The position numbers were made by a program, and so were the translations under genes. This document shows positions 30,611 through 54,904 of a DNA stretch of 64,000 nucleotides, in pieces (positions within the stretch are counted from its first letter, which is position 1; every line of letters begins with the position of its first letter). This DNA comes from an uncultured delta proteobacterium (lineage in GTDB: Bacteria > Desulfobacterota > Syntrophia > Syntrophales > Smithellaceae): assembly GCA_963813455.1 (NCBI GenBank), contig CAWEZF010000008.1, positions 1,874 to 65,873 of the forward strand, read 5' to 3'. A model generated the notes under the pieces. It did not search any database, was not told where the DNA came from, and saw nothing but the letters and a program-made list of their open reading frames with translations.

Positions 30611-30650
30611 AAGATCTGATTTGCTTGCCGGTAGTGAGTGAAATTTCCCC

Positions 30651-32219: not shown

Positions 32220-32221
32220 GA

Positions 32222-33409: not shown

Positions 33410-33423
33410 TTTACAGCTTCCCC

Positions 33424-40612: not shown

Positions 40613-40681
40613 GTAGTTGATAAACTGGTTTACGAGCTATATGATTTAACCCCCGAAGAAATCGCCATTGTGGAAGGGTAA
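40613..40681 (+). pseudogene. 22-codon C-terminal tail of a type IIG RM/methyltransferase gene
   Basis: VVDKLVYELYDLTPEEIAIVEG*, the characteristic C-terminus of these enzymes. A stop lies immediately upstream. Confidence 0.45.
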
Positions 40682-40792
40682 TAATGTGTCCGGCGTGTTT
40701 TGGGAAACACGCCCTACAAGCGGGGTAAATCAGGAGCAAATCTTTATTTTTGACAATTCGTTTAATCGAAAAAATGTGAAGATTCTATTTAA

Positions 40793-40920
40793 TAGATTGC
40801 CACGGCGGCATGTGCCGCCTCGCAACGACTGCCCGAGCATTCCCTGCATGCGCTGGGGTTCCCCGCCGGTCAAGCAGTTGGATTGCCTCATCACGCCACG
40901 GCGTGGATTCGCAATGATAG
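40793..40920. repeat. dispersed intergenic repeat (copy c, two tandem half-units)
   Basis: AGATTGCCACGGCGGCATGTGCCGCCTCGCAACGAC and GGATTGCCTCATCACGCCACGGCGTGGATTCGCAATGATA. Confidence 0.45.
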
Positions 40921-40989
40921 AGTGATATTGCGGTCAGGTAGTACATTTTTACCGCGACTTTATGTTTGACGTTCTATAATTTTATTATT

Positions 40990-41165
40990 CATTTAGCTTT
41001 TTTCCTGCTCATCACATCAAAAGTATCAAAGACGGTTGCCGGTGGTGTGTAGAGTTTTTCCTCAACTTTTTTCTCAAGTTTTAATGCCTCGCCGCTACAT
41101 GTGGTGACACAAAGGCCGCAGCCGATACAGCGTTCAGCGTGAAACTCAATCTTTTCATCCTTCAG
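40990..41165 (-). pseudogene. C-terminal remnant (~57 codons) of a paralogue of the 4Fe-4S gene at 47256-48314
   Basis: About 90% nucleotide identity by eye to 47256-47432. Encodes KDEKIEFHAERCIGCGLCVTTCSGEALKLEKKVEEKLYTPPATVFDTFDVMSRKKAK*. No start codon. Confidence 0.6.
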
Positions 41166-41174
41166 TCGCCAAAC

Positions 41175-42569
41175 TTATTTATTTTTCTTTCGCCAGTCCT
41201 GATAACGAAGGACACTGGCGTAGGTTCTCAGTGCCCGCTCGGACGATTCGAAGTAAGGAATGCCGGCATCGCAGAACTGAGGTATATAGGAAGGGTCAAA
41301 ACCGGGGATATTAACCATGAGGATAGCCTTGCCGGACTGCCGACGCGTTTCCACGACGGCATCGGTATAAAGCCTGTTTGCTTCGGGGCTCAGCCCGGCC
41401 CCGATGATCAATACGGCATCCACAGCCGGGTCGGCAACAACGGCTTTGACGCTCTGGATGTAAATTCCAATATCCAGCGAAGCTGTAAGACCGACGTCGA
41501 TGGGATTGCGCAGGCTTGTGCCCGTCGGCGGCACAACTTCAGCCAGGGCATCACGGGTTTTCGGCGAAAGCTGTGCCAGACGAAGTCCATTTTCCTCGCA
41601 AGCCTCGGCGGCGGAAACAGCCAAACCTCCCGGCCCCGAAACTATGGCAATCCTATCGCCAAGCTTCTGCGAAAGCATGGCAAACCCCATGAGGGAATCA
41701 AACCAGGCCTCGAAACCTGCCACGGGAACGGCGCCGGTCTGCCTCACAATTCCCTCCCAGATGTTCCGGGCACCAGCCAAGGCGCCAGTGTGAGACGCTG
41801 CCGCCCGCGCTCCTGCGGATGTCAATCCTACTTTCCAGAGGATTACGGGTTTTTCAAGCGAAGCCGCGCGAAGCGCTTTGAAGAAGCGAGGGCCGTCCTT
41901 TATCCCCTCTATATAAGCGCCGATCAGGCCTGTTTCTTTGTCGCCTCCCAGGTAAAGGAGGAAGTCGGCGCTTGTCAGGTCGCATTCATTGCCCAGACTG
42001 ATGGCCTTGCTGAAACGGATACCGCGCTGCGGGGCTACGCGACATAGGATGTTCGCCAGAGAACCGCTATGTGAGACGATTCCTACAGGACCAGGCTCTC
42101 TTGTTAACTCGGGGAAAAAGGAAAGTCCGGAACGCGGCGCGTAAATTCCCATGCAATTCGGCCCGATGAGTCTCATCCCGGAATCGCGGGCTACTTGTAC
42201 CAGCTCTTCTTCCAGGGCTCGCCCTTCATCGGTACCCATTTCCTTGTAGCCCGCCGTGAACAGAACGGCCCCTTTAACTTTCTTGGCGGCGCATTCTCTG
42301 ACCGCGGCAAGAGTGAGATGCTGCGGCACTAAAATTATGGCCAGATCCACCTCACCGGGTATGGCAGAGACGCTGGGATAAGCCTTATAACCGTCAATCT
42401 CGTCGGCCTGCGTTGACACGGGATAAATCTCGCCGGAGAAACCCTGGTCGAGAAGCGCCATGAAAAAAAGCTTGCCCGTCTTCAATCCCCGGGGCACTCC
42501 GACAATGGCCACCGATCGGGGGTGCATAATCTCATCTATACGTTCTAAAAGCTGCTGCGTGGAATTCAT
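41175..42569 (-). CDS. acetate/acyl-CoA ligase (ADP-forming) alpha-type, CoA-binding protein
   Basis: 464 aa with a CoA-binding Rossmann start (SVAIVGV), GPNCMG, and succinyl-CoA-synthetase-like flavodoxin domains. Confidence 0.8.
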   Translation of the reverse strand: MNSTQQLLERIDEIMHPRSVAIVGVPRGLKTGKLFFMALLDQGFSGEIYPVSTQADEIDGYKAYPSVSAIPGEVDLAIILVPQHLTLAAVRECAAKKVKGAVLFTAGYKEMGTDEGRALEEELVQVARDSGMRLIGPNCMGIYAPRSGLSFFPELTREPGPVGIVSHSGSLANILCRVAPQRGIRFSKAISLGNECDLTSADFLLYLGGDKETGLIGAYIEGIKDGPRFFKALRAASLEKPVILWKVGLTSAGARAAASHTGALAGARNIWEGIVRQTGAVPVAGFEAWFDSLMGFAMLSQKLGDRIAIVSGPGGLAVSAAEACEENGLRLAQLSPKTRDALAEVVPPTGTSLRNPIDVGLTASLDIGIYIQSVKAVVADPAVDAVLIIGAGLSPEANRLYTDAVVETRRQSGKAILMVNIPGFDPSYIPQFCDAGIPYFESSERALRTYASVLRYQDWRKKNK

Positions 42570-42751
42570 CGCTCCTCAAGATTATTATTTTGTTTGGATT
42601 CAGGCGCGCGCATCCTTATCGCGTCAACCGGACACTCTGTAGCACAAAATCCACACGAAATAAACGATGCACTTTTTTCCAAAACAGGATAGCCATACTT
42701 GATTATCAAAAATCGTGAAGCGTGAAGCCGGCCATACGGGTGAAGCGTCAA
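42566..42751 (-). pseudogene. ferredoxin-like remnant translationally coupled to the ACS-like gene
   Basis: CGFCATECPVDAI partial cluster motif and an ATGA stop/start overlap with the ACS-like gene. No ATG or RBS at the 5' end. Confidence 0.3.
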
Positions 42752-42861
42752 CAGTGAAGAGCTAAGAGCGGCTGATTATATTAAATCAGGTAATTATAAA
42801 AGATTTGTAAATACCCGCCCAATGTATTAATTTTAAGCTCACGGAAAGGAAAACGAACTAT

Positions 42862-43224
42862 ATGCTAATCCCCATTATATCTCTTTTTGCGGCAATTTCA
42901 GGCGCTCTTATCATCATCGGCATTCTCAAAAAAAGCAAAAATGTTTTTTCGGCTTTGTCCATTATATTGTGGCTGTGCTCTCTTGTTTCGGCATTTTTTG
43001 TCGGCTGGGCATGGCTGGAAAGAGCTTATTCTGAAAACTGGGCAATGTACGGCTTCTTTTTCATCTCGCTTCCCATCATTATTACAGCGAGTGTCCTGGC
43101 AATATTGATGATTCTTGCGGTAAAAGTTCGCAAGATTGATAATATGAAGGATGTTTGCTTAAGACTTTATCTTCTTTTGATATTCTTAGCGGCGCAGGTT
43201 GTTGTTGGGTTTTTTTACGCCTAG
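42862..43224 (+). CDS. small integral membrane protein (4 predicted TM segments), function unknown
   Basis: 120 aa hydrophobic ORF with no family recognised. Confidence 0.4.
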   Translation: MLIPIISLFAAISGALIIIGILKKSKNVFSALSIILWLCSLVSAFFVGWAWLERAYSENWAMYGFFFISLPIIITASVLAILMILAVKVRKIDNMKDVCLRLYLLLIFLAAQVVVGFFYA

Positions 43225-43233
43225 AAAAAATGA

Positions 43234-43335
43234 TCCAGCAATAATTATATTGCCACAAATAAGCAAATCGACAAACTGGTTTACGAGCTAAACGCTTTAA
43301 CCCACGAGGAAATCACCATTGTTGAAGGGCAGTAA
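43234..43335 (+). pseudogene. second C-terminal tail of a type IIG RM/methyltransferase gene
   Basis: ..NKQIDKLVYELNALTHEEITIVEGQ*. Paralogous to 40613-40681, including the downstream GTAATGTGT. Confidence 0.4.
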
Positions 43336-43374
43336 TGTGTTGAGCATGAATTGTAAGCGCTCCAATAAGTATTT

Positions 43375-43662
43375 ATGACAAACGACGCAATAATATCTTA
43401 TATATCAAAAGTGTTTTGGCGAACAAGCCTAGACGGGTCGCATCAATATACATTACGTTCATGGAAATCTGACTTAGCAGAGATGTTTAATGAGTTTGTC
43501 CTGCATATTAGGCAACATGGATACGTTGATAAGTTCATGGGGGAAGAATACATCTATTTTAATGTGGGGGGAGCTTATCGATACTGGAGTATGGGCGCGC
43601 CTCTTGAGGAAACAATTTTGATTAATCGGGCAAAAATGAATTCAAAACAGCTTTCTGATTAA
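43375..43662 (+). CDS. hypothetical protein
   Basis: 95-aa ORF (..YIYFNVGGAYRYWSMGAPLEETILINR..). No family confidently recalled. Confidence 0.35.
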   Translation: MTNDAIISYISKVFWRTSLDGSHQYTLRSWKSDLAEMFNEFVLHIRQHGYVDKFMGEEYIYFNVGGAYRYWSMGAPLEETILINRAKMNSKQLSD

Positions 43663-43830
43663 TGGAGTATCTAATGCAGATCGATCTAAATAAATTTGTT
43701 CCTTTCTACCGCGATACGTTACTTAAACCGGAAGTTTTGGATATCTATGAAATTGGTAAAATATATTACTAGCCGTCTTTTTTTGATGCCTCCTATAAAT
43801 TCGACGAATTCGATAATGATTCAGAGCTAA

Positions 43831-43872
43831 AACAAGGCGCCCCAAAATGGAGCGCCTTGTTTATATTTTTTT
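43831..43872 (+). terminator. rho-independent terminator
   Basis: 10-bp stem AACAAGGCGC/GCGCCTTGTT followed by TATATTTTTTT. Confidence 0.65.
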
Positions 43873-43884
43873 GCGTGCAACCGC

Positions 43885-45289
43885 CTACTGCACCGCCCTG
43901 CCCGGCCTTCTCTTTACCCTTACCGCGGCTCTATCTGCGGCCTTTTGCTTCAATACCGGAACAACAAAAATAGTATAGAGCGCGCACATGCCGAAGAACG
44001 CGGCCATGACAACGGCCACCCAGTAATTGGCAAACATCACGTTGCCGGCGGCGTCTTTGCTTATATCGGTAAAAATGCCAATGAGCAGGCCGGCAAAAAT
44101 TATTATGGTGATGATGGGAATCAGATAACCGCCGGGCACTTTGAAATCCCGCGGGGTATCCGGCATTCTTCTTCTGAGCCTTATGACGCAGGCAGCCATC
44201 ACAACATAGATGAAGCATTCAAGCGCCGCCGCCATGATAATTATGAAAAGATACTGGCCGGAAATAAGGACAAAGAAGCTCACAAGAAGCGCGAAGAACA
44301 TAAGCCCGAGAATCGCAACCCACGGCGTGGCGTGATCCGGATGCAGCCTGCTGAAAACGCTGGGCAGAACATTGTCCCTGGCCATCGCGTAGGCGAAACG
44401 CGATGTGTTGAGAAGCCCGGAATTAAAAGACGTGACCGACGCAAGTATGCTCATGACTATAAAAACGGCAAGCCCGGTTTTCCCGAACAGGTTCTGGCCG
44501 AAAAGGATATGCGGGATGCTCGTACCCGAAAGCCTCTGTTCGGGCGTCAGGCCGATCCACATGGCGACGGTAAAAAGCGCGTATGTCACGGAAAGCAGGC
44601 CGATGGCAATCATCATTCCCTTGCCGATAAGCCTGTAATCGGTTGTTTCCTCGGCCAGCGGCGTCACCCACTCGAAACCCGACATAAAGGAAAACGCCCA
44701 CAGCGGCAGCGGTAATGACATTGGAAAGCGTGAATTGCGGATTTGTGAGTGCCGGAATAATGCTCAGGTCGATTTTGAAGATTGCGTACAGGGAGACGAA
44801 AATCAGAAAGCCGATCATTGTGTAAGTGAGGATGTCCTGAACAAAACCTGTCAGCCTGATGCCGCGGTAATTTATTGCCGCAACCGCCAGAATAAAAAAT
44901 ACCAGCCAGAAAGCGCGATCAAAAGTCGGGCTTACAATATCGAACGCGTGGACAAGTACGCTGGCCAAAAGGTAACTTTCGGCGCCGACCATGGAAATGC
45001 CGAGTAGGACATAAAAACTTCCGATTATAATCGCCGCCTTTTCATTGAACGCTTTCTGGATGAACAGCTTTATGCCGGCGGCTGTCGGATACTGGGAGGT
45101 AAGCTCGGAAAAGCACATGGCCGAAAGCAGGCACAAAAGCCCGGCAATCAGTATTGATATCCATGCCAGTTCGCCGACAACAATCGTCGCCACCTGAAAA
45201 CCGGCAAGGTAGCAGGATGTGGCCAGCGCCATTCCCGCGGATGCCGAAATAACCGTCCGCAGTTTGAGTACTTTTTTAAGTGTGGTCAT
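43885..45289 (-). pseudogene. APC-superfamily amino acid/polyamine transporter, one frame break (or sequence error)
   Basis: ORFs 44423-45289 and 43885-44721 are collinear. The join FLYVGF|EWVTPLAEE lies at a GGGTTT run near 44670. Confidence 0.75.
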
Positions 45290-45351
45290 TTGAATTTCCG
45301 CCTCTGATAAATATAAGAAAAAGTATTTATAAAATCATGCCGCGTCAAAAT

Positions 45352-45711
45352 TCAGGCGTCGGGCCAGATTATCATGGTAATGGCATCGAGCCTGACGACA
45401 TCCTCCTGCGATGCCTTAACCCGTATTTCGCCCTGCAGATATTTCTGCGAAGGGTTCAAATCTCCCCAGAACATATCGCAGAGATTTTCGCTGACCGTCG
45501 TCACGATAATATCCGGCGTTCCTTCCGCTCCGGCGCCGAAAGAAACAATCTCCCCGCTGATTACATTCATGGTGAACCAGTCGCCCGTGTCGTCGGCATG
45601 AAAGTGCAGCAGCTTTGTCCAATCGCGCTGCATTCTGCGCAGCCTCTTGTTTTCATTGCAGTTAACCTGATAATCGACAAGAGCATCAAGAATTTCCTGA
45701 CTTGTAGCCAC
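45352..45711 (-). CDS. SCP2 sterol-carrier-like domain protein
   Basis: 119 aa with the C-terminal SCP2 pattern DLNPSQKYLQGEIRVKASQEDVVRLD. Confidence 0.65.
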   Translation of the reverse strand: MATSQEILDALVDYQVNCNENKRLRRMQRDWTKLLHFHADDTGDWFTMNVISGEIVSFGAGAEGTPDIIVTTVSENLCDMFWGDLNPSQKYLQGEIRVKASQEDVVRLDAITMIIWPDA

Positions 45712-45822
45712 TTTTTTACCTCCCGTTTAACTATGTTGAACATACCAAGCGTTGGCCAATGAGCCCGCGAAGAACAATAAAAACATAAATAAATTTATGC
45801 AAGATTATCATGCCCTGTATGA

Positions 45823-47088
45823 TTAGTCGTTTTTGCCTATTCCTTTTTCTTTGGAGAGTTCTTTCATGGAATCTTCAAGGGCGTTTAGCACCTCGTCAAC
45901 TTCTGGCGCGGTAATGACCAGCGGCGGCATGAAGCGGCAGATGCTCGGATCGTTTCCGGTATAGACGGCAAGTACGCCCCTGTCGGAGAGTTTTCTGGTC
46001 ATTCTCGGGCCGATGGAATCGTTCGTGTACTGCAGACCCATCATCAGCCCTTTTTGCCGTACTTCAAGCAGCAGCTCGGGATATTGCGCCAGAAGCGTGT
46101 CGAATCCCGTCCTAAATCTCTGCCCCATTTTTTCGGCGTTGCCGGGCAGGTCATGTTTGATTATGTAATCGATTGTCGCCAGAGCCACAATACAGCCGAG
46201 GTCCGAGCCGCCGAATGTCGAAAGGTGCACAAAAGGATGCGGAATGAAAAAATCGTTTATCTCTTCTTTGAAAATTGTGGCCGATATCGGATAAATGCCG
46301 CCGCCCAGCGACTTGGCTACAGTCATGATATCGGGAACAACGCCGAAATGCTCACAGGCGAACATCTTCCCCGTCCGGCCGAAGCCGGTCTGTATTTCAT
46401 CGAGGATTAAAAGAACCTCGTTTTCGTCGCATATTTTTCTTACCTGTTCCAGATAACCTTCCGGCGGGATGTTGATGCCGCCTTCGCCCTGAATGGTTTC
46501 CAGAATGACAGCGGCCGTGTCATTATCTATCGCTTTTTTTACGGCTTCCGCGTCGCCGAAATCAACCATGGTAAAACCCGGCATCAGCGGGTGAAATGAT
46601 TCCTTGTACGCCTCGCGGCCGCTTGCGGAAAGGGCAAATCCCGTATGCCCGTGATAAGCCTTTTGGGCATAGATGATCTGTTTTTTCATGGTGTAACCGC
46701 GGGCGATCTTTATTGCCGCGTCAACTGCCTCTCCTCCGCCGACACCGAAAACCGAACAGCGCAGATCGCCGGGTGTAATCTCGGCAAGCTTTTTCGCCAA
46801 GTCGGCCTTCTGCTTTGAGCAAAGCAAAAATACGCCGATATCGTAACTATCAAGCGCCTTTTTCAGCGCCGCCACAATTTCGGGATTGCGGCGTCCGGCA
46901 TTCATGATGCCCGAACCTGTCTGGCAGTCGATATAGCGCTTTCCGGTCATGTCCCACGAAGATGCTCCGTCGCGCTTCTCCTCGATGATGTCAATACCAG
47001 CGCTTTTGAGCGTTCTGACTTTCATGGGGTTGATAAATTCGGCAAAATCCTTCAAGGCCTGCTGCTTGATTTCTTCAGGCTTGCTCAT
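45823..47088 (-). CDS. class III (omega) aminotransferase, PLP-dependent
   Basis: 421 aa with [13 protein letters not shown] and the PLP-lysine motif TVAKSLGGG. Confidence 0.85.
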
Positions 47089-47255
47089 CTTTTACCTCCT
47101 GAACCATGCTGTGGGACTGAAATACACTACCGCAATAACGTATCTTGTTTCAACAGGTTTATAAAGCGCCTTGATTACGTTAAAAACTGTTTTTTAAAAA
47201 ACGTGTCACCCAACTCATTAAAGAATGTCCAATTTTTTTCTTGCAGTCTGATGAT

Positions 47256-48314
47256 TTATTCGGCTTTTTCCCTGCTCATCACATCAAAGGTATCAAAAAC
47301 GGTTGCCGGCGGTGTGTAGAGTTTTTCCGGGACTTTTTTCTCAAGCTTTAATGCCTCGCCGCTACATGTGGTGACACAAAGGCCGCAGCCGATGCAACGT
47401 TCAGCGTGAAACGCGATTTTTTCATCTTTCATTTGAAACGCGCCCACTGTGCATCGATCCACGCAAGCGCCGCAAAGATTGCAGAGGCTTTCATCAAAAA
47501 CGCATACATAATTACTTTTAACTGCCAGAGCCGGAGCGGGAAAAAGCTTTAGCGAAATGAGCATGCCGCAACAGCACGAGCAGCAGCAGCACATGGCTTC
47601 GACTTTCTGCGAATTCAGAATATGTATAACCAGACCTTCTTCCTCGCTTTTCTTCAGAATGGCCAGGGCTTCATCGGTGCTGATAAAGCGCGCCATTTTA
47701 TTTTCCACATAATAGTCGGCAAAGGTTTCGAACTGCAGGCATGTTTCCGCGGGATGCTCGCAAGTTTTTCCATACAAGCGCACGGCTTTGCGGCAAAAAC
47801 ACTCGGCAACGGCAATGCGTGATTTACTCCTGATGATGGCCGCCGCGTCATCGTAAGGGGCGATGGGGCTATCGGCCACGATTTCGGCGTTGATGGGAAT
47901 GGAACGCAGGTGCGGTGTTTTTTGTCCGTGAAACGTGGCGCCCAAGCCATTAAGATAATACTGGGAAATATCTTTCAGCAGCGGCAAATTCAAATTGTTG
48001 AGCTGAAACTCATAGATACCGACAATGAACGGCAGCGGAAAATAACGGATCTCTTCATCCTGTTTGACCCTGAAGATAAGCCCCCGGCGGGCCATGCTCT
48101 CGAGTTTTACCGCCATTTCGGAAGCATCAGCCTCCAGGCGCAATGCCACCTCGTGAACCGTTTCCGGCTGCATATCCATTTTCAGAAATATGTCCGCGTC
48201 TTCTTCACTGAAAAGCTGGCGGAGTATTTTAATCTCGACGCCGTTTGCCGTGGCCGGGTAACCGGTTGCCATAGCTTCAAGCCTGTCGCGTAATTTTTCA
48301 TGGATATCTTTCAT
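47256..48314 (-). CDS. 4Fe-4S dicluster protein with an additional CCCCSCCC motif
   Basis: 352 aa with CNLCGACVDRC and CIGCGLCVTTC ferredoxin motifs plus MCCCCSCCCGM. Confidence 0.7.
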   Translation of the reverse strand: MKDIHEKLRDRLEAMATGYPATANGVEIKILRQLFSEEDADIFLKMDMQPETVHEVALRLEADASEMAVKLESMARRGLIFRVKQDEEIRYFPLPFIVGIYEFQLNNLNLPLLKDISQYYLNGLGATFHGQKTPHLRSIPINAEIVADSPIAPYDDAAAIIRSKSRIAVAECFCRKAVRLYGKTCEHPAETCLQFETFADYYVENKMARFISTDEALAILKKSEEEGLVIHILNSQKVEAMCCCCSCCCGMLISLKLFPAPALAVKSNYVCVFDESLCNLCGACVDRCTVGAFQMKDEKIAFHAERCIGCGLCVTTCSGEALKLEKKVPEKLYTPPATVFDTFDVMSREKAE

Positions 48315-48442
48315 TTTATAAGCGGCCTTTCGCGGCTTTATTTAGCCGAGGCATCTTTATCAAAACCGGGGGATAATTACAACTTATGTGATTTTCTCCT
48401 GGTAAATATATGGACATTTTAATACCCAATCCTTTTTTTATT

Positions 48443-48570
48443 GAATTGCTTCCCGAGCATGCGCCGGGCAAGCTGGTCGTTACACTCTCTCGCAAGTACG
48501 GGAAAAGAGCTTTATTGCTTCCCCGGATCGGAGTCCGGGGCAGGCTTCGCTTTGGTCATAGCGAAGACAT
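48443..48570. repeat. dispersed intergenic repeat (copy d, two half-units)
   Basis: GAATTGCTTCCCGAGCATGCGCCGGGCAAGC...CTCGCAAGTAC and TTATTGCTTCCCCGG...CATAGCGAAGACA. Confidence 0.45.
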
Positions 48571-48711
48571 AGACGTAGATCGGATTGGCCCACACCGGCA
48601 ATCTGACTTAAGTGCAATTTTCGGGGATTCGTCAATAATCTAAAAACAATGCCGGATTTATTTTTTGAGGCATCTTTTTTGGAGGCTTGAGTGCGCCACC
48701 ACATTTTTTAA

Positions 48712-48740
48712 TTGACATAGAATTGTGCTTTACCTAAACT
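48712..48740 (+). promoter_or_regulatory. sigma70-type promoter for the three-gene ligase cassette
   Basis: TTGACA, 17-nt spacer, TAAACT, 21 nt before the ATG at 48762. GAAGGTG RBS. Confidence 0.5.
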
Positions 48741-48761
48741 CGTTTCACGGGTGAAGGTGCA

Positions 48762-49874
48762 ATGGACAATATCCTGAGTCGCTTCGGCATTGATAAGCCG
48801 CCTGACGGCACTGGCCGTGTCTTGATCCGGCGGTTACGAAAGCTTTGGCGCCTGTATGGCATAATTCGGCGGGAGTTCCAGTCTAGGGTGCCACTTTCTA
48901 TCCTAAACTCCATTCGAGCCTGGCGTTACGGTTTCACGCGAGGGAGTTACTTTCTATACGAACTGGACAAGCATGACCCACGAATGTTTATCAATGACTG
49001 TGTCCAGTATCTCGAAATGGATAAAATCAATGAGTTACATCTGCATGCGAGTGCTCATAAAGTCATTTTTTCACGATACGTTGAGGGTCTCGGCGCACCG
49101 TGCCCACATATCCACGCGTTAATCATTAAGGGACATATTCATTCTCTGGACAGCACGGAAAAATTGGGAATCGAATGGTTACTCGAACTGATTGAAGAAT
49201 ACCCTTTGGGAGTTGTGCTCAAACCGATAATCGGACGTGAGGGATTCGGTGTTTCTTTTTTGAAACGCGGCAGACAATGCTACGAGCTCAACGGGCAAGC
49301 TGCTACAGATGACGATGTGAAAACAGTTGTGAAACAACTTGACAACTACCTTATCACCGACTTTGTGATGCAGCATGAATACGCCACAGAGCTTTACCCC
49401 AGGACAACGAACACTCTGCGTTTGCTTACGTTGTGGGACTACGAAACCGACCGACCTTTCCTGGCCGCAGCTGTTCAGCGCATAGGCACCTCGCGCTCCT
49501 ATCCCGTAGACAACTTCATAATGGGTGCAGGTGGACTAAGCGCGTTTATCGAGCCTGAGACAGGAAAGTTGAGTTGCGGAGTTCATCGCCCTGATACAGG
49601 ACCCATGCAGAGGCATGCCCGTCACCCGGAAACTGGTAAGCTAATCGAGGGTGTAATCGTGCCAAGATGGCGGGAAACCGTGGAGGAAATCCTCCGGTTT
49701 TCTGCCCGGGTGCCGTACCTTCCCTTAATCGGGTGGGACGTAGTCATGACGCCCAACTACTACGCAATCATCGAAACCAACCCAGGTTGTGGCTTCTACG
49801 TAATTCAGGTGCATAAGCCATTGCTGGCAGATAGGCGCATTAAAAGATTTTTCGAATTCCACGGCTGTATTTAA
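48762..49874 (+). CDS. ATP-grasp ligase of the 'sugar-transfer-associated' (ATPgrasp_ST-like) type
   Basis: 370 aa. RYGFTRGSYFLYEL, VLKPIIGREGFGV, NTLRLLT, DNFIMGAGGLSAFIE, HPETGK and IGWDVVMT..IIETN match the family pattern as recalled. Confidence 0.6.
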   Translation: MDNILSRFGIDKPPDGTGRVLIRRLRKLWRLYGIIRREFQSRVPLSILNSIRAWRYGFTRGSYFLYELDKHDPRMFINDCVQYLEMDKINELHLHASAHKVIFSRYVEGLGAPCPHIHALIIKGHIHSLDSTEKLGIEWLLELIEEYPLGVVLKPIIGREGFGVSFLKRGRQCYELNGQAATDDDVKTVVKQLDNYLITDFVMQHEYATELYPRTTNTLRLLTLWDYETDRPFLAAAVQRIGTSRSYPVDNFIMGAGGLSAFIEPETGKLSCGVHRPDTGPMQRHARHPETGKLIEGVIVPRWRETVEEILRFSARVPYLPLIGWDVVMTPNYYAIIETNPGCGFYVIQVHKPLLADRRIKRFFEFHGCI

Positions 49875-49882
49875 GATAAATT

Positions 49883-51190
49883 ATGGAAAAAGAAAACCAT
49901 ACTCAATATACCCTCCGTTGCTGCCGATGCGGAACAGAAATCGAAGACGACGGGATCATGCTGTTTCATGAAGAGTGCAAGCCCCCTGGACTTCTGCAGA
50001 CAATCTATTCTGCAGCGCGGCCAGGCCCGGGCGAAAAGTCCATGGGGCTATTCCAGTATCGTGATTGGCTACCTGCCCGGAGAAATTTATCTGGTTCGAG
50101 CGCTACTGTAACCTATAAAAGTCGGGGGTTGGCCAAACACTTAAACCTTGAGAACTTATTCATTTCGTTTAGCGGTTACTGGCCCGAACGGGGCGCATCA
50201 ATGATTACCTGTAGTTTCAAAGAGCTCGAGGCCTATGCCGTCTGTGCGCGCCTTCCGGATAATTTCAGCGATGTTCTTGTCGTAGCGTCTGCGGGCAACA
50301 CCGCCAGAGCATTTATTCACGTCTGCTCCAAGCACAATATCCGTGCCCTGATTATTGTACCGGAAAGTTCGCTTCCCATGCTCTGGCAGAATAAAGAACC
50401 AAACAAATACGTTAATGTTTTGGCTCTCAGTGGCAACAGCGACTATACTGATGCAATCTTATTATCGCAGGATATCTGCAGAATGAACGGGTTTGTGCCA
50501 GAAGGCGGTGCCCTTAATGTCGCCCGCCGTGACGGCTTGGGGACGACAGTCCTTTCCTGCGTAGCAGAGGCAAGGCGCATTCCCGATGAGTATTTTCAGG
50601 CTGTAGGCAGCGGGACAGGCGCCATTGCCGCCTGGGAAACGAATGTCAGGCTCAACCAGAAAAAAGTTTGGCCTGGTGGGTTGATGAGGCTTCATCTCTC
50701 GCAAAACTTTCCTTTCACGCCCATTTACGATTCTTGGAAACGGCAGTCCCGCGAACTGGTATCGGTTAATCCGATGCCCGGAGCCTCTCATGGTCATCCT
50801 TACGCTTCCGTGCTATCCAACCGAAAACCTCCTTATGGGATTGCCGGCGGACTTTACGATGCACTAGTTGCCACTAAGGGAAACGTATACTGCATTACAA
50901 ACGAAGAAGCCATTGCCGCCTCGCATTTGTTCGAGCAAGCCGAAGGTATCGACATTGATCCGGCGGCAGCTGTCGCGATAGCGTGCCTGGTAAAATGCGT
51001 CGTAAACAGCACGGTTCAAACAAACGCGTATATTATGCTCAATATTACCGGAGGAGGGTTCAAGCGCCTTCAGCGAGATGTCTCGCTGCAAACAATAAGA
51101 CCAATAGCCGTCATTGGTCGTGCTGATTTTCAAAATATTCATTCTCTCCTTGTTGATAATGAAAAGGGAGATCTAAAGCTTCGCATGTGA
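49883..51190 (+). CDS. threonine-synthase/cysteate-synthase-like fold-type II PLP enzyme
   Basis: 435 aa with an N-terminal Cys/His ribbon (CCRCG...HEEC), PLP-lysine motif TCSFKELEA, and VGSGTGAIA. Confidence 0.65.
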   Translation: MEKENHTQYTLRCCRCGTEIEDDGIMLFHEECKPPGLLQTIYSAARPGPGEKSMGLFQYRDWLPARRNLSGSSATVTYKSRGLAKHLNLENLFISFSGYWPERGASMITCSFKELEAYAVCARLPDNFSDVLVVASAGNTARAFIHVCSKHNIRALIIVPESSLPMLWQNKEPNKYVNVLALSGNSDYTDAILLSQDICRMNGFVPEGGALNVARRDGLGTTVLSCVAEARRIPDEYFQAVGSGTGAIAAWETNVRLNQKKVWPGGLMRLHLSQNFPFTPIYDSWKRQSRELVSVNPMPGASHGHPYASVLSNRKPPYGIAGGLYDALVATKGNVYCITNEEAIAASHLFEQAEGIDIDPAAAVAIACLVKCVVNSTVQTNAYIMLNITGGGFKRLQRDVSLQTIRPIAVIGRADFQNIHSLLVDNEKGDLKLRM

Positions 51191-51239
51191 TATCTGCTTT
51201 GAAAGAAGGCTATGCGATAATTTATAAATAATTGATATT

Positions 51240-52474
51240 ATGAGAAATTATTTTAAACAATTAATGCCGCTGAAACTTGCATATTTTCTTGCCAGCGTTC
51301 ACCGCAAAAGAATTAAACATGCCACCTTTATTGCTATAACGGGAAGCGCTGGTAAAACAACAACCACAGATCTGATAGCCAACATCCTTGCCACATCTGG
51401 TCTTTGTCAGCGAACACATGCGTATACTACTTGTTGCCAGCTATTATTGGCAGGATTTGGCATACAAGCAAGTCCCATCGCTACTGTGTAGCGGAGTTAG
51501 CCGCAACCTCATCCGGCCCCGGCTCATTGGACATGTCTGTCCGCCTATTTAAACCGGATATTGCCGTTGTCACTGTTATTGGACGTGATCATTACAGCGC
51601 CTTCAAAAGCATGGAAGCTATCGCCGCAGAAAAGGAAAAAGTGGTGCTGGCGCTTTCACCACAGGGTATCGCCGTAATGAACATAGACGATCCACTCGTG
51701 CGATCTATGGGGGAGCGCTGCAACCGGAAGGTAATATGGTTTGGGAAAGACGCTGGCGCCACACTGCGTTTGCGCGAAGCGCGTTCATGCTGGCCGGAGC
51801 CCTTGGTCGTGGTTTTTGATTATCAAGACAAAACCTACGAAGTCCGAACACAGTTGCATGGTACCCACATGGCAATTCCGGTGCTGGCCTCGCTGGGGGT
51901 TGCGCTGGCGGCGGATCTGTCCCTGGAAAAAGCGATCTCGTCAATACAACACGTGCAGCCAATAGAAGGACGTATGCAGGTGGTGACCGGTAACGATGGA
52001 GTTGTTTTTATTCGGGATGATTGCAAGGCACCTCAATGGTCACTGAATGCACCGCTTGAATTTTTAAAAGAAGCAAAAGCCAGTCGAAAGATTGCTATTT
52101 TGGGCACCGTATCTGATGCTTCCGGAGATGCTACCCAGAGGTATAAGAAATATTCTAGACAACTGCGCGAAGTCGCGGACATTGTTGTTTGCGTCGGCCC
52201 TAATGCACACCGTGCACTACGTGCGAGAAAAAATGAGAATGATGCTACGATTCAGGGTTTTTCCAGTATTCGTGATGCGGCAGTTTACCTGCAAAGCGAA
52301 TTAAGAAAAGGTGATTTGGTTCTTCTGAAAGGCTCGCACAAAGCAGATTATCTGATTCGGCTCATCATAAACAGAGACAGTCCCATTAAGTGCTGGAAAG
52401 ACAAGTGCGATGAGCAAATATTTTGTGACAAGTGTTCCAAGCTTTATAAACCATCCACAAGATTTTTTAACTGA
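51240..52474 (+). pseudogene. Mur-ligase-family (MurF-like middle and C-terminal domains, no N-terminal domain) amide ligase, one frame break (or sequence error)
   Basis: TGSAGKTTT P-loop at residue ~34. The frame changes near a TTT run at about 51403. Downstream: ELAA..PDIAVVTVIGRDHY, HGTHMAIPVLASLGVA, a C-terminal domain, then CWKDKCDEQIFCDKC. Confidence 0.7.
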
Positions 52475-52633
52475 TTTTATTTACTTACTACAGCATGTAT
52501 GTCTATATATTTATTTACAGCAGAAAAGCTTTATCGAGCTCATATCTAAATGTCTGAATGCTCCACAATAAAATAATATTGCTCTCAGACCGTTCGCATC
52601 TGCTGATAATCCGGAATTGTTTCTGGCGCCTGG

Positions 52634-52810
52634 CTTATTTATTTTTCTTTCGCCATTCCTGATAGCGAAGGACACTGGCGTAGGTTCTCAGCGCCCGCTC
52701 GGACGATTCGAAGTAAGGAATGCCAGCATTACAGAATTGAGGTATATAGGAAGGGTCGAAGCCGGGAATGTTAACCATGAGGATAGCCTTGCCGGATTGC
52801 CGCGGGGCGC
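52634..52810 (-). pseudogene. C-terminal remnant (~55 codons) of a paralogue of the ACS-like gene at 41175-42569
   Basis: About 90% identity by eye to 41174-41349. Encodes ..ILMVNIPGFDPSYIPQFCNAGIPYFESSERALRTYASVLRYQEWRKKNK*. Confidence 0.6.
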
Positions 52811-52921
52811 CGTAAACAACATTTGTTATTAATAACTTTTGACAAAAAGCCGGGGTTGAAATAATATTGACCCGTATCGTTATTCTAACGCTCCTAAACC
52901 ACCAAACCGGGAGGCAAATAA

Positions 52922-54160
52922 ATGAAAATACTTAAGATTGTTTTAGTTTCATTGGCGGTATTAATTTGCGCTTTTTTGCTGATATCCACGATTAATTACA
53001 ATTATTATTCACCCCAAAAGCTTAACGTTGAGCCAGACAGCGAAGCTCTTGCGTTTTATAAAGAGACCTATGATGAAGCGCGGGATCTGTTTCGGTCAAA
53101 TTCAGGACTGCTTGCCCGGAAGCTCAAGGGCGTGGAAAAAGCGATGTTCAAAGTGCCTTCCAAAGAAGACAATGATTTGAGCGTTGACATTCTCTATGTC
53201 CCCGCGCAAAAAGTGAAAAAAAGGCTGGTCATTATCTCTTCCGGAACTCACGGCATTGAAGGTTATGTGGGCAGCGCGATACAGGCAATGCTCATGAAAG
53301 AGTTTATGAAAGCGGAGATACTCGATGATACCGGCTTCCTATTTATTCATGGATTGAATCCCTACGGTTTCAAATATATCCGCCGCACGACGGAAAACAA
53401 TGTTGACCTGAACCGCAACTGCTCCGCCACGCCCGAGCTCTATCAGACAAAAAATACAGGCTATCCGGCGGTTACTGACCTTATCAATCCGGAAGGAAAA
53501 GTGAAAACCCGCAGCGCCGGGAATATCTTTTTCCACCTGCGCTCCATAAAAAAGATTATCAGCGCGTCAATGCCTGTACTAAGACAGGCGGTTCTGCAGG
53601 GGCAGTATGATTACCCGAAAGGGCTCTACTACGGCGGGTCAAAGCCGGAACCGCAGATCGTCAGCGTAAGCCCCTTCATCGTAAAGTATTCCGCCGGTTA
53701 TCCTCTGGTTATGAATCTTGATTTGCATACCGGTTACGGCAAAAACGGCAACGCGCACCTGTTTCCTAACCCCGCAAGCAATACGGAAGTCAAAGCGATG
53801 ATGGAAAAAGTTTTCGCGGGTTACAAAATCGATTGGGGTGATACCGCGGGCTTTTACACGGTGACCGGAGATTTTACCGGATACCTTTCCAAGATTATAA
53901 AAACGAAATATCTGCCAATGTTAATAGAGTATGGAACGCTGGACAGCCAGACTACCTTCGGTTCCATAAATTCTCTGCACCGGACGCTTCTGGAAAATCA
54001 GGGCTTCAACTATGGCTATGCCTCGGAAGCGGACAGAGAAAGGGTCAAAAAGATGTTCCGGGAGATGTATTATCCGTCATCAGAAGCGTGGCGCACAAAG
54101 GTTATTCAGGACACAAGGGAGATCATGAACAGCGCCCTGAATAATTTTAAAAAGTTATAA
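52922..54160 (+). CDS. DUF2817 / M14-like zinc carboxypeptidase-fold protein, membrane-anchored
   Basis: 412 aa with an N-terminal TM segment, then SSGTHGIEGYVGS and NPYGF..RRTTENNVDLNRN, which resemble the M14-clan zinc site region. Confidence 0.6.
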   Translation: MKILKIVLVSLAVLICAFLLISTINYNYYSPQKLNVEPDSEALAFYKETYDEARDLFRSNSGLLARKLKGVEKAMFKVPSKEDNDLSVDILYVPAQKVKKRLVIISSGTHGIEGYVGSAIQAMLMKEFMKAEILDDTGFLFIHGLNPYGFKYIRRTTENNVDLNRNCSATPELYQTKNTGYPAVTDLINPEGKVKTRSAGNIFFHLRSIKKIISASMPVLRQAVLQGQYDYPKGLYYGGSKPEPQIVSVSPFIVKYSAGYPLVMNLDLHTGYGKNGNAHLFPNPASNTEVKAMMEKVFAGYKIDWGDTAGFYTVTGDFTGYLSKIIKTKYLPMLIEYGTLDSQTTFGSINSLHRTLLENQGFNYGYASEADRERVKKMFREMYYPSSEAWRTKVIQDTREIMNSALNNFKKL

Positions 54161-54205
54161 TAAATGTAAAGGTACTTTCATCAACATAAAAAGGAGATTG
54201 TAATC

Positions 54206-54904
54206 ATGAATTTATATCCTTATCTGGTTTTGTTCTTAGGCGCGATCGCGTTAACCATGTTTCTTATTGCCCGAGACCGTAAAGGCAGCCCAGAGGCGCT
54301 ATTGATAAAAACGATTACCAGTTTTCTATTCATCACCGTAGCTTTCGCGTCTTTTATGGTTAATTCAATCCAAGAGGTTACAATGTTCTTTGCGCTCATC
54401 ATGATGGGGCTTGTCTGCGGCCTGATCGGCGATATTGTTTTAGACCTGAAGATAATGTACAAAAAATCGTCTTCTATTTATCAGCATGGCGGCATGGTTG
54501 CTTTTTTTGTCGGGCATGTATTCTATCTGGCGGCATTGCTGATTTATTTCGGCTTCAGCTTGATGGCTTTAGTAACTGCTTTAATTTTGGCAATTATCAT
54601 AGTTTGTGTCAGCAAGTTTATTCTCAAATTTAATTTCGCCCAGCATTCAATAGACACTTATGCTTATTCATTCGCTTTGTCTTATATGATGACCCAGGCC
54701 TGCTACGCGGCAATTACTCAAGGCTATACCACCAGCACAGTTTTATTAGCCGCGGGGGCCATTTTGTTTTTGTTATCAGACCTGGTCCTGGTAATGACAT
54801 ATTATGACAACAAAGATTCCAAGCCGTTTATTGTAGTTAATCATGTGCTGTATTACGGGGCACAATACTCAATTGCCCTAAGCATTTTATACTTAGTCGT
54901 CTGA
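54206..54904 (+). CDS. YhhN/lysoplasmalogenase-family membrane protein
   Basis: 232 aa, about 8 TM segments, GLIGDIVLD and LFLLSDLVL motifs. Confidence 0.65.
   Translation: MNLYPYLVLFLGAIALTMFLIARDRKGSPEALLIKTITSFLFITVAFASFMVNSIQEVTMFFALIMMGLVCGLIGDIVLDLKIMYKKSSSIYQHGGMVAFFVGHVFYLAALLIYFGFSLMALVTALILAIIIVCVSKFILKFNFAQHSIDTYAYSFALSYMMTQACYAAITQGYTTSTVLLAAGAILFLLSDLVLVMTYYDNKDSKPFIVVNHVLYYGAQYSIALSILYLVV

What the first reader, a model, noticed from the sequence alone, without database searches (positions are those of the whole stretch)
48712..52474. Promoter-led three-gene cassette: ATP-grasp ligase, ThrC/cysteate-synthase-like PLP enzyme, N-domain-less Mur-type ligase
Three co-oriented genes with 8-nt and 49-nt gaps sit behind a good TTGACA-17-TAAACT promoter. 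They are on the opposite strand to all their neighbours. They lie between a dispersed repeat (48443-48570) and a truncated gene remnant (52634-52810). Gene 1 looks like an ATPgrasp_ST-type ligase. Gene 2 is a fold-type II PLP beta-replacement enzyme (SFKELEA lysine, Cys/His ribbon) closest in feel to threonine or cysteate synthases. Gene 3 is a Mur-family ligase with its P-loop at residue ~34, so it has no UDP-sugar-binding N-domain, as in CapB/PgsB, MurT and the CphA M-domain. It ends in CX4CX5CX2C. An ATP-grasp module plus a Mur-ligase module is the catalytic pair found fused in cyanophycin synthetase; here the two are split around an amino-acid-forming PLP enzyme. My inference is ribosome-independent synthesis of a peptide, pseudopeptide or polyamide that contains a non-proteinogenic beta-substituted amino acid. 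One candidate is cysteate made from phosphoserine plus sulfite, which would suit a sulfite-producing anaerobe. The membrane-anchored M14-like DUF2817 gene just downstream (52922-54160) could trim or turn over such a product. I know of no characterised system with this gene trio.
Basis: partly seen in the sequence, partly recalled or inferred. Interest (0 to 1): 0.75.

Follow-up and report, generated by a model that had tools for sequence, protein, structure and literature searches.

The report
Acquired cysteate-synthase and amide-ligase cassette
A 4.2-kb piece of DNA that this syntrophic bacterium carries and a close relative lacks encodes an enzyme that makes the sulfonated amino acid cysteate plus two ATP-driven bond-forming enzymes, which points to an undescribed sulfonated peptide-like product whose identity is still unknown.

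Summary
The three genes, their 8-nt and 49-nt gaps and the TTGACA-17-TAAACT promoter are all present. Gene 2 is a clear cysteate synthase (TIGR03844, 462 bits against a cutoff of 325; PDB 9k3c, 1e-120). Gene 1 is an uncharacterised ATPgrasp_ST ligase. Gene 3 is a MurF-like ligase with no N-domain and a conserved C-terminal four-Cys tail.

New findings:
- The cassette is a discrete 4,212-bp insertion (48588-52799) flanked by a 7-bp repeat. It is absent from a relative that is about 90% identical, where the Fe-S gene directly faces DUF2817. DUF2817 is therefore a native neighbour, not a partner.
- The gene 1 + gene 2 pair, with its promoter, is conserved in all nine loci whose gene 1 is at least 60% identical. 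The trio occurs only here.
- More distant gene-1 relatives sit next to gene-3-type ligases in eight further loci.
- The gene-3 frame break is probably an assembly error, because essential AspS and GatB are also split in this window.

The most likely function is ATP-dependent assembly of a cysteate-containing amide, following Ddl-to-MurF logic. The product and acceptor are unknown. This is a new variant of a known kind and is moderately interesting.

The parts
48581..48587 (.). Left copy of the 7-bp direct repeat CGGATTG at the insertion junction
   Evidence: Alignment of window and L053 junctions. Homology to the empty site in L053 runs up to ...GATCGGATTG.
48588..52799 (+). 4,212-bp inserted islet. 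It is absent from the close relative L053/L054, where only about 71 nt separate the flanks.
   Evidence: blastn of window against L053: 47255-48411 matches L053 8644-9800, and 52793-54151 matches L053 9872-11230. Junctions refined. Gene order in L053 is Fe-S(-) | DUF2817(+).
48712..48740 (+). Sigma-70-type promoter TTGACA-17-TAAACT, inside the inserted DNA
   Evidence: Scan. The -35 and -10 elements are conserved upstream of gene-1 orthologues in L055, L027 and L032, with TTGACA also in L001.
48762..49874 (+). Gene 1: ATP-grasp carboxylate-amine ligase of the ATPgrasp_ST family, 370 aa
   Evidence: PF14397 9e-32. AF2 model pLDDT 88.5. Best Foldseek matches are RimK, LysX/ArgX, LdmS and Ddl, TM about 0.4. 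1366 clusters at 50% identity reach E<=1e-30.
49883..51190 (+). Gene 2: cysteate synthase (PLP, fold type II), 435 aa
   Evidence: TIGR03844 462 bits against cutoff 324.9. PDB 9k3c 1e-120 with the SFKE(L/T)EA lysine motif and other blocks aligned. Homologues are named cysteate synthase.
51240..52474 (+). Gene 3: MurF-like ligase with no N-terminal domain, a C-terminal four-Cys tail and no Pth domain. It is read in two frames, with a -1 change at about 51399-51406.
   Evidence: Mur_ligase_M and Mur_ligase_C. MurF subfamily model 133 bits, below the cutoff of 288.6. Alignment across the break. About 900 homologues, most with a C-terminal PF01195 fusion. A model of the 71%-identical P0076 matches MurF best, TM 0.77-0.80. 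dN/dS is 0.16-0.20.
52621..52792 (-). 3'-terminal remnant of an NDP-forming acyl-CoA synthetase gene, carried in at the right end of the islet
   Evidence: 91% direct repeat of 41161-41342, the 3' end of ORF 41175-42569, which has CoA_binding and Succ_CoA_lig domains. Translation shown.
52793..52799 (.). Right copy of the 7-bp direct repeat CGGATTG

Best explanation
This is a horizontally acquired 4.2-kb islet with its own promoter. It most likely encodes a short ATP-dependent, ribosome-independent route to a cysteate-containing amide.

Proposed steps:
1. Gene 2 makes L-cysteate from O-phospho-L-serine and sulfite.
2. Gene 1 is co-transcribed with gene 2 and lies 8 nt upstream of it. In orthologous loci the two genes overlap. 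Gene 1 is an ATP-grasp ligase that joins cysteate through an amide bond to a second common metabolite, giving a sulfonated dipeptide-like unit.
3. Gene 3 is a MurF-like ligase that lacks the UDP-binding N-domain. It carries out a second ATP-dependent ligation and attaches that unit, or a further residue, to a carboxylate acceptor. This is the logic by which Ddl (an ATP-grasp enzyme) makes the dipeptide that MurF adds.

Shown: the family identities, the insertion, the conserved gene 1 + gene 2 pair with its promoter, the recurrent pairing of the gene-1 and gene-3 families, and purifying selection on all three genes.

Inferred: that cysteate is a substrate of gene 1, the order of the steps, and the acceptor and final product. 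The product could be a small soluble sulfonated peptide or a decoration on an envelope polymer.
For: - Gene 2 is a cysteate synthase.
- Gene 2, or a remnant of its N-terminus in L030, lies immediately downstream of gene 1 in all nine distinct loci where gene 1 is at least 60% identical. These are the window, L001/L006, L002/L003, L027, L028/29/31, L032, L055, ERZ1426824 and L030. The other neighbours vary from locus to locus.
- In L028 an APS/PAPS reductase, which forms sulfite, lies directly upstream of the pair.
- The promoter is conserved with the pair.
- Gene-1 relatives at 33-40% identity are adjacent to ligases of the gene-3 family (N-domain-less, same Cys tail) in L010, L017, L018, L020, L021/46, L035, L038 and L044.
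- The gene-1 fold is closest to RimK, LysX and Ddl amide ligases. The gene-3 fold is closest to MurF.
- The whole unit, promoter included, is one insertion relative to L053.
- dN/dS is 0.13-0.20 for all three genes.
- Essential genes in the same window are also frame-broken, so the gene-3 break is best read as an assembly error.
Against: - The trio is not found elsewhere. Other gene 1 + gene 2 loci carry a methyltransferase (L055, ERZ1426824) or nothing as a third gene.
- Apart from a non-catalytic Lys12, no residue is invariant in the cysteate-synthase-linked gene-1 clade and different in relatives that lack it. Nothing in gene 1 itself points to cysteate.
- Gene 3 lacks the Pth domain that most of its family carries. 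Its two closest relatives show decaying Pth domains.
- Gene 3 has no obvious Shine-Dalgarno sequence.
- No product, acceptor or exporter is identified, and no paper describes the system.
Confidence: 0.5

Rival explanations
1. Envelope-polymer decoration. Genes 1 and 3 attach cysteate, or a cysteate peptide, to carboxyl groups of a surface polysaccharide (uronic acid or pyruvyl ketal) or of peptidoglycan precursors. This would give a sulfonated, strongly anionic cell surface.
For: - Pfam names PF14397 'sugar-transfer associated' and describes it as predicted to act in cell-surface polysaccharide synthesis.
- Ligases of the gene-3 family sit inside polysaccharide clusters in Marinobacter (L025: glycosyltransferases, PGA_cap, Polysacc_deac_1/DUF3473) and on a Gemmobacter aquarius plasmid (L056: GT25, pyruvyl transferase, GT4).
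- L027 has a MOP flippase divergent from the pair.
- L022 clusters the ligase with CapK_C, LdmS_N and two ATPgrasp_ST genes.
Against: - Seven of the nine gene 1 + gene 2 loci have no glycan gene within about 8 kb.
- The islet carries no glycosyltransferase or flippase.
- The MurF N-domain that binds UDP-MurNAc is absent.
Confidence: 0.2
2. Only gene 1 + gene 2 is the functional module. Gene 3 is a degenerating passenger, truncated of its Pth domain and frame-broken, that was carried in on the same DNA fragment.
For: - The trio is unique to the window.
- There is no Pth domain or remnant after gene 3.
- The closest relatives, L022 and L024, have truncated or deleted Pth domains.
- The frame break lies at 51403-05.
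- There is a 49-nt AT-rich gap with no clear ribosome-binding site.
Against: - 356 codons remain open after the break.
- dN/dS of 0.16-0.20 equals that of genes 1 and 2.
- AspS, GatB and an amino-acid permease are split in the same window, which points to assembly indels.
- Adjacency of the gene-1 and gene-3 families recurs in eight other loci, whose ligases also lack Pth.
Confidence: 0.17
3. The genes encode a poly(amino acid) or cyanophycin-like polymer synthetase split into separate ATP-grasp and Mur-type subunits. The polymer would contain cysteate.
For: - CphA1 fuses an ATP-grasp domain and a Mur-type domain. CphA1 is a Foldseek match for the gene-3 family model (TM 0.66).
- L035 has PGA_cap (CapA-like), an ATP-grasp and a Mur ligase in a row, and L025 also has PGA_cap. 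This recalls PgsB/CapA.
- Tandem double ATP-grasp fusions exist in the gene-1 family.
Against: - Gene 3 scores 44 bits on the cyanophycin synthetase model against a cutoff of 850, and gene 1 does not match it at all.
- The window has no CphA N-domain, no cyanophycinase and no PGA_cap gene.
- The gene-3 family model matches MurF far better than it matches CphA.
Confidence: 0.06
4. Gene 2 supplies free cysteate for another pathway, such as sulfonolipid, sulfopyruvate/coenzyme-M-type or taurine metabolism. Gene 1 then acts upstream of gene 2, for example as an ATP-grasp kinase that supplies an activated substrate, or it is functionally unrelated.
For: - Cysteate synthase homologues at 50-55% identity occur widely in Bacteroidota and Spirochaetota without this ATP-grasp.
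- ATP-grasp kinases (PPIP5K) appear among the Foldseek matches for gene 1.
- No cysteate-specific residues were found in gene 1.
Against: - There is tight, often overlapping gene 1 + gene 2 coupling in nine loci with a shared promoter.
- No cysteate acyltransferase or sulfopyruvate decarboxylase lies nearby. The TPP enzyme in L002 is IOR-like.
- The gene-1 family also pairs with amide ligases where no cysteate synthase is present.
Confidence: 0.07

Closest known systems
Cysteate synthase (Methanosarcina coenzyme-M pathway enzyme, Graham et al. 2009, cited in PMC4045070; NCBIfam TIGR03844; PDB 9k3c; homologues annotated as cysteate synthase in Bacteroidota MAGs)
   Same: Gene 2 is full length and scores above the curated cutoff. 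The PLP-lysine block and the other conserved blocks align with the solved enzyme.
   Different: Here it is coupled to an ATP-grasp ligase. It is not next to sulfopyruvate decarboxylase (coenzyme M) or a cysteate acyltransferase (capnine). The downstream fate of cysteate therefore appears to be different.
D-Ala-D-Ala ligase (Ddl, ATP-grasp) feeding MurF in peptidoglycan synthesis
   Same: An ATP-grasp amide ligase is paired with a ligase whose sequence and predicted fold are closest to MurF, TM 0.77-0.80 for the model of the 71%-identical relative P0076. Ddl is among the structural neighbours of gene 1.
   Different: Gene 3 lacks the MurF N-terminal domain and scores far below the MurF cutoff. 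It has a C-terminal four-Cys tail, and in most relatives a Pth domain. Gene 1 is only remotely Ddl-like (TM about 0.4).
Cyanophycin synthetase CphA1 (fused ATP-grasp G domain and Mur-type M domain)
   Same: The same two catalytic superfamilies cooperate in ribosome-independent amide formation.
   Different: The proteins here are separate and there is no N-domain. Sequence similarity to CphA is marginal (44 bits against a cutoff of 850), and MurF is a much better match.
N-domain-less Mur-type ligases: MurT (with GatD) and PgsB/CapB (with CapA) of poly-gamma-glutamate synthesis
   Same: These have middle plus C-terminal Mur domains only. MurT is a Foldseek match for the gene-3 family model (TM about 0.5). 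PGA_cap (CapA-like) genes lie next to gene-3 relatives in L035 and L025.
   Different: The islet has no GatD and no PGA_cap. The Cys motif here is a C-terminal tail. By my recollection, the MurT zinc ribbon is an insertion in the middle domain.
RimK and LysX/ArgX ATP-grasp ligases
   Same: These are the best structural matches for gene 1. They add amino acids to carboxylates through acyl-phosphate intermediates.
   Different: Similarity is low (TM about 0.4, 14-16% identity). No carrier protein (LysW) or ribosomal-protein substrate is indicated.

Membership tests
Cysteate synthase (TIGR03844) | Score above the curated equivalog cutoff over the full length | tested here: met
   462.1 bits against a cutoff of 324.9, residues 9-407 on model positions 1-394 of 398.
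Cysteate synthase (TIGR03844) | Closer to the solved cysteate synthase than to threonine synthases; PLP-lysine block conserved | tested here: met
   9k3c 1e-120 (406 bits) against 1.4e-12 (50 bits) for the best ThrC. SFKELEA aligns with SFKETEA.
Cysteate synthase (TIGR03844) | Catalyses phosphoserine + sulfite to cysteate | not testable with these tools
   Indirect support only: an APS/PAPS reductase lies directly upstream of the orthologous pair in L028.
ATP-grasp, ATPgrasp_ST (PF14397) | Pfam gathering score reached, and ATP-grasp fold | tested here: met
   110.8 bits against a cutoff of 31.4. AF2 pLDDT 88.5. Foldseek probability 1.00 to RimK, LysX and Ddl.
ATP-grasp, ATPgrasp_ST (PF14397) | Association with sugar transferases or polysaccharide loci (the basis of the family name) | tested here: not met
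   No glycosyltransferase in the islet or in most gene 1 + gene 2 loci. Only L027 has a flippase nearby.
MurF (UDP-MurNAc-tripeptide--D-Ala-D-Ala ligase) | Three-domain architecture with an N-terminal UDP-binding domain; score above the cutoff | tested here: not met
   The P-loop is at residue 35. The match starts at model position 64 of 418. The score is 133 bits against a cutoff of 288.6.
Mur ligase superfamily | Mur_ligase_M with a GxxGKT P-loop, plus Mur_ligase_C | tested here: met
   PF08245 (74 bits, plus 25 bits on the N-terminal fragment) and PF02875 (58 bits); P-loop GSAGKT. The best fold match for the model of relative P0076 is MurF.
Mur-ligase/Pth fusion family (uncharacterised; annotated 'aminoacyl-tRNA hydrolase') | N-domain-less Mur ligase plus the CWx3Cx5-6Cx2C tail | tested here: met
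   50-75% identity to members. C382, W383, C387, C393 and C396 are invariant in A4.
Mur-ligase/Pth fusion family (uncharacterised; annotated 'aminoacyl-tRNA hydrolase') | C-terminal PF01195 peptidyl-tRNA-hydrolase domain | tested here: not met
   The protein ends 10 residues after the last Cys. tblastn with the Pth domain finds nothing in the window.
Cyanophycin synthetase | Single polypeptide with N, ATP-grasp and Mur-type domains; score above the cutoff | tested here: not met
   Gene 3 scores 43.7 bits against a cutoff of 850. Gene 1 has no hit. The genes are separate.

The most novel reading that the evidence does not exclude
The conserved ATP-grasp + cysteate-synthase module makes a previously unknown class of sulfonated peptide metabolite. 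This could be an X-cysteate dipeptide that is methylated in some lineages and extended by a MurF-like ligase in this one, used as an anionic solute, signal or surface charge. The wider gene-3 family would then define a new non-NRPS amide-forming system with a possible link to aminoacyl-tRNA chemistry, because most members are a Zn-ribbon Mur ligase fused to a Pth domain that appears to keep its catalytic motifs.
Probability: 0.3. Interest if true: 0.75.

Novelty: new variant of a known kind. Interest (0 to 1): 0.55.

Why it matters
Cysteate is known in bacteria and archaea as a precursor of coenzyme M and sulfonolipids and as a catabolic intermediate. I found no report of cysteate being joined into amides by dedicated ligases. 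A conserved two-gene module that does this would add a new branch to organosulfonate biochemistry in anaerobic sediment and digester bacteria.

It would also give a first functional handle on two large uncharacterised families:
- an ATPgrasp_ST subfamily with about 1,400 clusters at 50% identity;
- an N-domain-less, four-Cys-tailed MurF-like ligase family, with about 900 hits, many annotated only as 'aminoacyl-tRNA hydrolase'.

The islet is small, carries its own promoter and is self-contained, so it is directly testable by heterologous expression.

Tried and rejected
- DUF2817 as a trimming partner: rejected. It is the native neighbour of the Fe-S gene in L053, which lacks the cassette, and it has no hit at any homologous locus.
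- A Pth remnant downstream of gene 3: none in any frame.
- A riboswitch or other RNA in 47000-54500: none in Rfam at E<=1.
- An anti-phage defence system: no PADLOC hit for genes 1-3.
- The L002 upstream genes as sulfopyruvate decarboxylase plus cysteate racemase: rejected. The TPP protein is weakly IOR-alpha-like, and the racemase meets the glutamate racemase cutoff.
- Rosetta-stone fusions of gene 1 with PLP or Mur domains: only tandem ATP-grasp fusions were found.
- Clade-specific residues in gene 1 that might bind a sulfonate: none apart from Lys12.
- Sequence search of the gene-1 profile against the PDB: only E of about 0.5 to glutathione synthetase.
- Literature searches for cysteate synthase + ATP-grasp, cysteate + ATP-grasp, ATPgrasp_ST, PF14397, Mur ligase + Pth fusion, and amide-linked cysteic acid in polysaccharides all returned nothing. 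The Iyer et al. 2009 amidoligase paper, which by my recollection is the source of the ATPgrasp_ST family, could not be retrieved.
- The exact protein of gene 2 is not on record in the contig index.
- Plasmid search: only distant gene-1 hits at 29-39% identity.

Full report
**What is in the sequence.** Three co-oriented ORFs lie at 48762-49874 (gene 1, 370 aa), 49883-51190 (gene 2, 435 aa) and 51240-52474 (gene 3). The gaps between them are 8 nt and 49 nt. Gene 3 is read in two frames. The first ORF, 51240-51491, carries the P-loop GSAGKTT. The rest runs from 51404 to 52474 in the -1 frame, and the switch falls at a short T-run, 51403-05. A TTGACA-17-TAAACT site lies at 48712-48740. That scan is not significant by itself, with 5 sites found against 7.2 expected. 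However, the TTGACA hexamer is invariant and a -10-like hexamer recurs upstream of gene-1 orthologues in four other loci that share only 62-73% protein identity. In L055 and L027 the whole stretch TTGACATAcAAtTG...CTAAAcT...GGTGAAaaTGCA-ATG is recognisable. I therefore accept it as a real promoter.

**Family assignments.**
- Gene 1 matches PF14397 (ATPgrasp_ST) at 9e-32 and no curated NCBIfam model. An AlphaFold model (pLDDT 88.5) has an ATP-grasp fold. Its best PDB neighbours are RimK, LysX/ArgX, LdmS and Ddl, all at low similarity, with TM about 0.4 and 14-16% identity.
- Gene 2 scores 462 bits on the cysteate synthase equivalog TIGR03844 (cutoff 325) against 47 bits or less on threonine synthase models. 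It matches the solved 'Cysteate synthase' 9k3c at 1e-120 with the PLP-lysine block and other conserved blocks aligned. Its database homologues are named cysteate synthase.
- Gene 3 has Mur_ligase_M and Mur_ligase_C but no N-terminal domain. It is most similar to MurF, scoring 133 bits, well below the cutoff of 288.6. A model of P0076, a relative 71% identical to gene 3 (pLDDT 86.6), superposes best on MurF structures (TM 0.77-0.80). MurC and MurE follow, then the CphA1 M-domain (0.66) and MurT (0.5).

**The frame break is probably not biological.** In the same window the essential aspartyl-tRNA synthetase is split into three ORFs (33424-35544). GatB is split into two (30773-32219), GatA is fragmentary, and an amino-acid permease is split at a T-run (43885-45289). 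An organism cannot have lost AspS and GatB, so this assembly carries indel errors. After the gene-3 break, 356 codons stay open. Gene 3 also shows dN/dS of 0.16-0.20 against its closest relatives, the same as gene 1 (0.18-0.20) and gene 2 (0.13). Inserting one base restores a protein that is colinear with its homologues.

**The cassette is a discrete insertion.** F-ATPase beta clusters at 90% identity with proteins from Syntrophales and Smithellaceae MAGs. The DUF2817 protein has relatives at 90% identity or more on a 764-kb contig (L053) and on L054. There the order is Fe-S protein (-) | DUF2817 (+) | HlyIII | YhhN | LEA_2 and so on, which is syntenic with the window, but nothing lies between the Fe-S gene and DUF2817. 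At nucleotide level, window 47255-48411 matches L053 8644-9800 (93%) and window 52793-54151 matches L053 9872-11230 (90%). Junction alignment places the insertion at GATCGGATTG^CCGCGGGG. The window carries CGGATTG at both 48581-87 and 52793-99, which bounds 4,212 bp. The inserted DNA holds the promoter, the three genes and, at its right end, the last 170 nt or so of a minus-strand NDP-forming acyl-CoA synthetase gene. That remnant is 91% identical to the 3' end of the intact copy at 41175-42569. No transposase or integrase is present. Long homology on the left and 7-bp microhomology on the right fit homology-facilitated illegitimate recombination from a related donor in which gene 3 was convergent with that synthetase gene. 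This last point is inference.

Two consequences follow. The three genes and their promoter moved as one unit. DUF2817, YhhN and LEA_2 are native neighbours and not partners, and no DUF2817 gene occurs at any homologous locus.

**Conservation elsewhere.** I collected 39 distinct gene-1 loci from protein look-ups and from one genome scan and one metagenome scan.
- All nine loci with gene 1 at 60% identity or more have gene 2 immediately downstream, often with overlapping stop and start codons. These are the window, L001/L006 (Deltaproteobacteria HGW-13), L002/L003, L027, L028/29/31, L032, L055, ERZ1426824 and L030. In L030 only the first 45 codons or so of gene 2 remain.
- The remaining neighbours differ from locus to locus. 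They include an M20 peptidase, glutamate racemase, an OCD-family protein, a MOP flippase and, in L028, an APS/PAPS reductase directly upstream. That enzyme produces sulfite, which cysteate synthase consumes.
- Two loci (L055, ERZ1426824) have a 254-aa SAM methyltransferase as the third gene.
- None of the loci with gene 1 at 53% identity or less has a cysteate synthase within the DNA held, up to 8 kb on each side.
- The trio with gene 3 is unique to the window.
- However, gene-1 relatives at 33-40% identity lie next to ligases of the gene-3 family in eight further loci (L010, L017, L018, L020, L021/46, L035, L038, L044). These ligases share the early P-loop and the four-Cys tail and have no Pth domain. 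They occur in either gene order and in several phyla. In L035 a CapA-like PGA_cap gene precedes the pair.
- Both pairings, gene 1 with gene 2 and gene 1 with gene 3, are therefore recurrent. The window is where they meet.

**The gene-3 family.** About 900 homologues were found. Most are 600-650 aa and carry a C-terminal peptidyl-tRNA-hydrolase domain (PF01195). They are annotated 'aminoacyl-tRNA hydrolase' in Nitrosomonas, Marinobacter, Syntrophales and Calditrichales. By eye, the Pth domain in P0082 keeps the GLGNP, HN, D and GH motifs (the comparison with canonical Pth rests on my own knowledge). In the window, gene 3 ends 10 residues after the last Cys, and no Pth remnant follows. Its closest relatives have a truncated Pth domain (L022, 76% identity) or an internally deleted one (L024, 76%). 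Family members sit in polysaccharide clusters in Marinobacter (L025) and on a Gemmobacter plasmid (L056). In L022 the ligase lies in a cluster with two other ATPgrasp_ST genes, LdmS_N and CapK_C.

**Mechanism.** The best-supported reading has three steps:
1. Gene 2 makes L-cysteate.
2. Gene 1 forms an amide that involves cysteate.
3. Gene 3 performs a second ATP-dependent ligation.

The closest mechanistic analogy is Ddl (an ATP-grasp enzyme that makes a dipeptide) feeding MurF, rather than cyanophycin synthetase. The steps are inferred from gene coupling and family chemistry. Nothing in gene 1 itself identifies cysteate as a substrate, because no residues specific to the cysteate-synthase-linked clade were found.

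The acceptor is open. The variable, non-glycan neighbourhoods of most gene 1 + gene 2 loci favour a small soluble product made from common metabolites. The polysaccharide contexts of the two wider families keep envelope decoration alive as a rival. I give the general model 0.5, envelope decoration 0.2, gene 3 as a passenger 0.17, a polymer 0.06, and 'cysteate for another pathway, with gene 1 upstream of gene 2 or unrelated' 0.07.

**Known or new.** Gene 2 is a member of a known enzyme family. Genes 1 and 3 belong to known superfamilies but to uncharacterised subfamilies. The gene-1 subfamily has 1,366 clusters at 50% identity with E<=1e-30. Full-text searches found no paper that links cysteate synthase or cysteate with ATP-grasp enzymes, none on PF14397, and none on Mur-ligase/Pth fusions. 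I rate this a new variant of a known kind: an ATP-dependent amide-ligase pathway with a dedicated supply of a non-proteinogenic amino acid. It has a plausible route to a new class of sulfonated metabolite.

The errors are the strand claim (downstream neighbours are co-oriented), the weak 'dispersed repeat', and treating the frame break as possibly biological. Cysteate and ribosome-independent amide formation hold up. The DUF2817 role, the 'sulfite-producing anaerobe' context and the CphA analogy do not. The trio as such is not conserved.

Noticed in passing
window 30773-35544; 43885-45289: Essential genes are frame-broken. AspS is in three ORFs, GatB in two and GatA is fragmentary. An APC-type amino-acid permease is split at a T-run near 44690. 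The assembly appears to carry homopolymer indel errors, so any 'pseudogene' call in this window is unsafe.
   Followed up: partly
window 40906-41342 vs 47251-47431 and 52621-52802: Two diverged (90-91%) direct repeats. The last 176 nt or so of the Fe-S gene, with its native downstream flank, abuts the 3' end of the acyl-CoA synthetase gene at 41 kb. Window 41165-47254 holds the CoA synthetase, RM-like fragments, the split permease and a class-III aminotransferase. It therefore looks like a second insertion of about 6.1 kb relative to L053, with a signature of homology-facilitated illegitimate recombination.
   Followed up: partly
window 54151-54184 vs L053 11230-12356: The relative L053 has a HlyIII-family gene between DUF2817 and YhhN. 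The window lacks it, which is a 1.1-kb indel.
   Followed up: no
window 40619-40702 and 43270-43353: An 84-nt direct repeat (81%) that encodes ...KLVYELY.LT.EEI.IVEG-stop. It resembles the C-termini of restriction-modification or BREX-type methyltransferases (my recollection), so it may mark fragments of defence genes in a variable region.
   Followed up: no
window 39393-40565: An ORF that combines the C-terminal part of a Schlafen group-3 helicase domain with an S24 peptidase domain. It has a weak PADLOC hit to candidate system PDC-S41 (2.4e-06).
   Followed up: no
window 48425-48553: About 125 nt of extra sequence in the Fe-S/cassette intergenic region relative to L053. The only other copies are two 34-nt, 82% matches in inverted orientation at 30644-30743, so it may be a small REP- or MITE-like element.
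   Followed up: partly
L025 8001-9920 (Marinobacter); P0082, P0099, P0126, P0171: A widespread uncharacterised fusion: an N-domain-less MurF-like ligase, a CWx3Cx5-6Cx2C tail and a peptidyl-tRNA-hydrolase domain that appears to keep its catalytic motifs. It is annotated only as 'aminoacyl-tRNA hydrolase'. In Marinobacter it lies in an EPS locus with Polysacc_deac_1/DUF3473 and PGA_cap. Two copies occur on the same 106-kb contig as the gene 1 + gene 2 pair of L002.
   Followed up: partly
L022 401-9738: A cluster of amide-forming enzymes around the closest gene-3 relative: Mur ligase, an unknown 449-aa protein, an L-PSP-domain protein, ATPgrasp_ST, an unknown 448-aa protein, LdmS_N, CapK_C and a second ATPgrasp_ST. 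It may be a multi-ligase peptide or glycan-decoration pathway.
   Followed up: no
L035 6-2938: PGA_cap (CapA-like), a gene-1-like ATP-grasp and a gene-3-like Mur ligase lie in a row on a metagenome contig. This recalls the poly-gamma-glutamate PgsB/CapA machinery, with an added ATP-grasp.
   Followed up: partly
window 45823-48314 (minus strand): A 352-aa protein with a C-terminal 2x[4Fe-4S] domain and an unassigned N-terminal 270 aa is followed by a class-III aminotransferase (putrescine-aminotransferase-like, 408 bits, below the cutoff of 612) and the split permease. A 35%-identical aminotransferase also lies next to a gene-1 relative in L009. This is probably coincidental.
   Followed up: no
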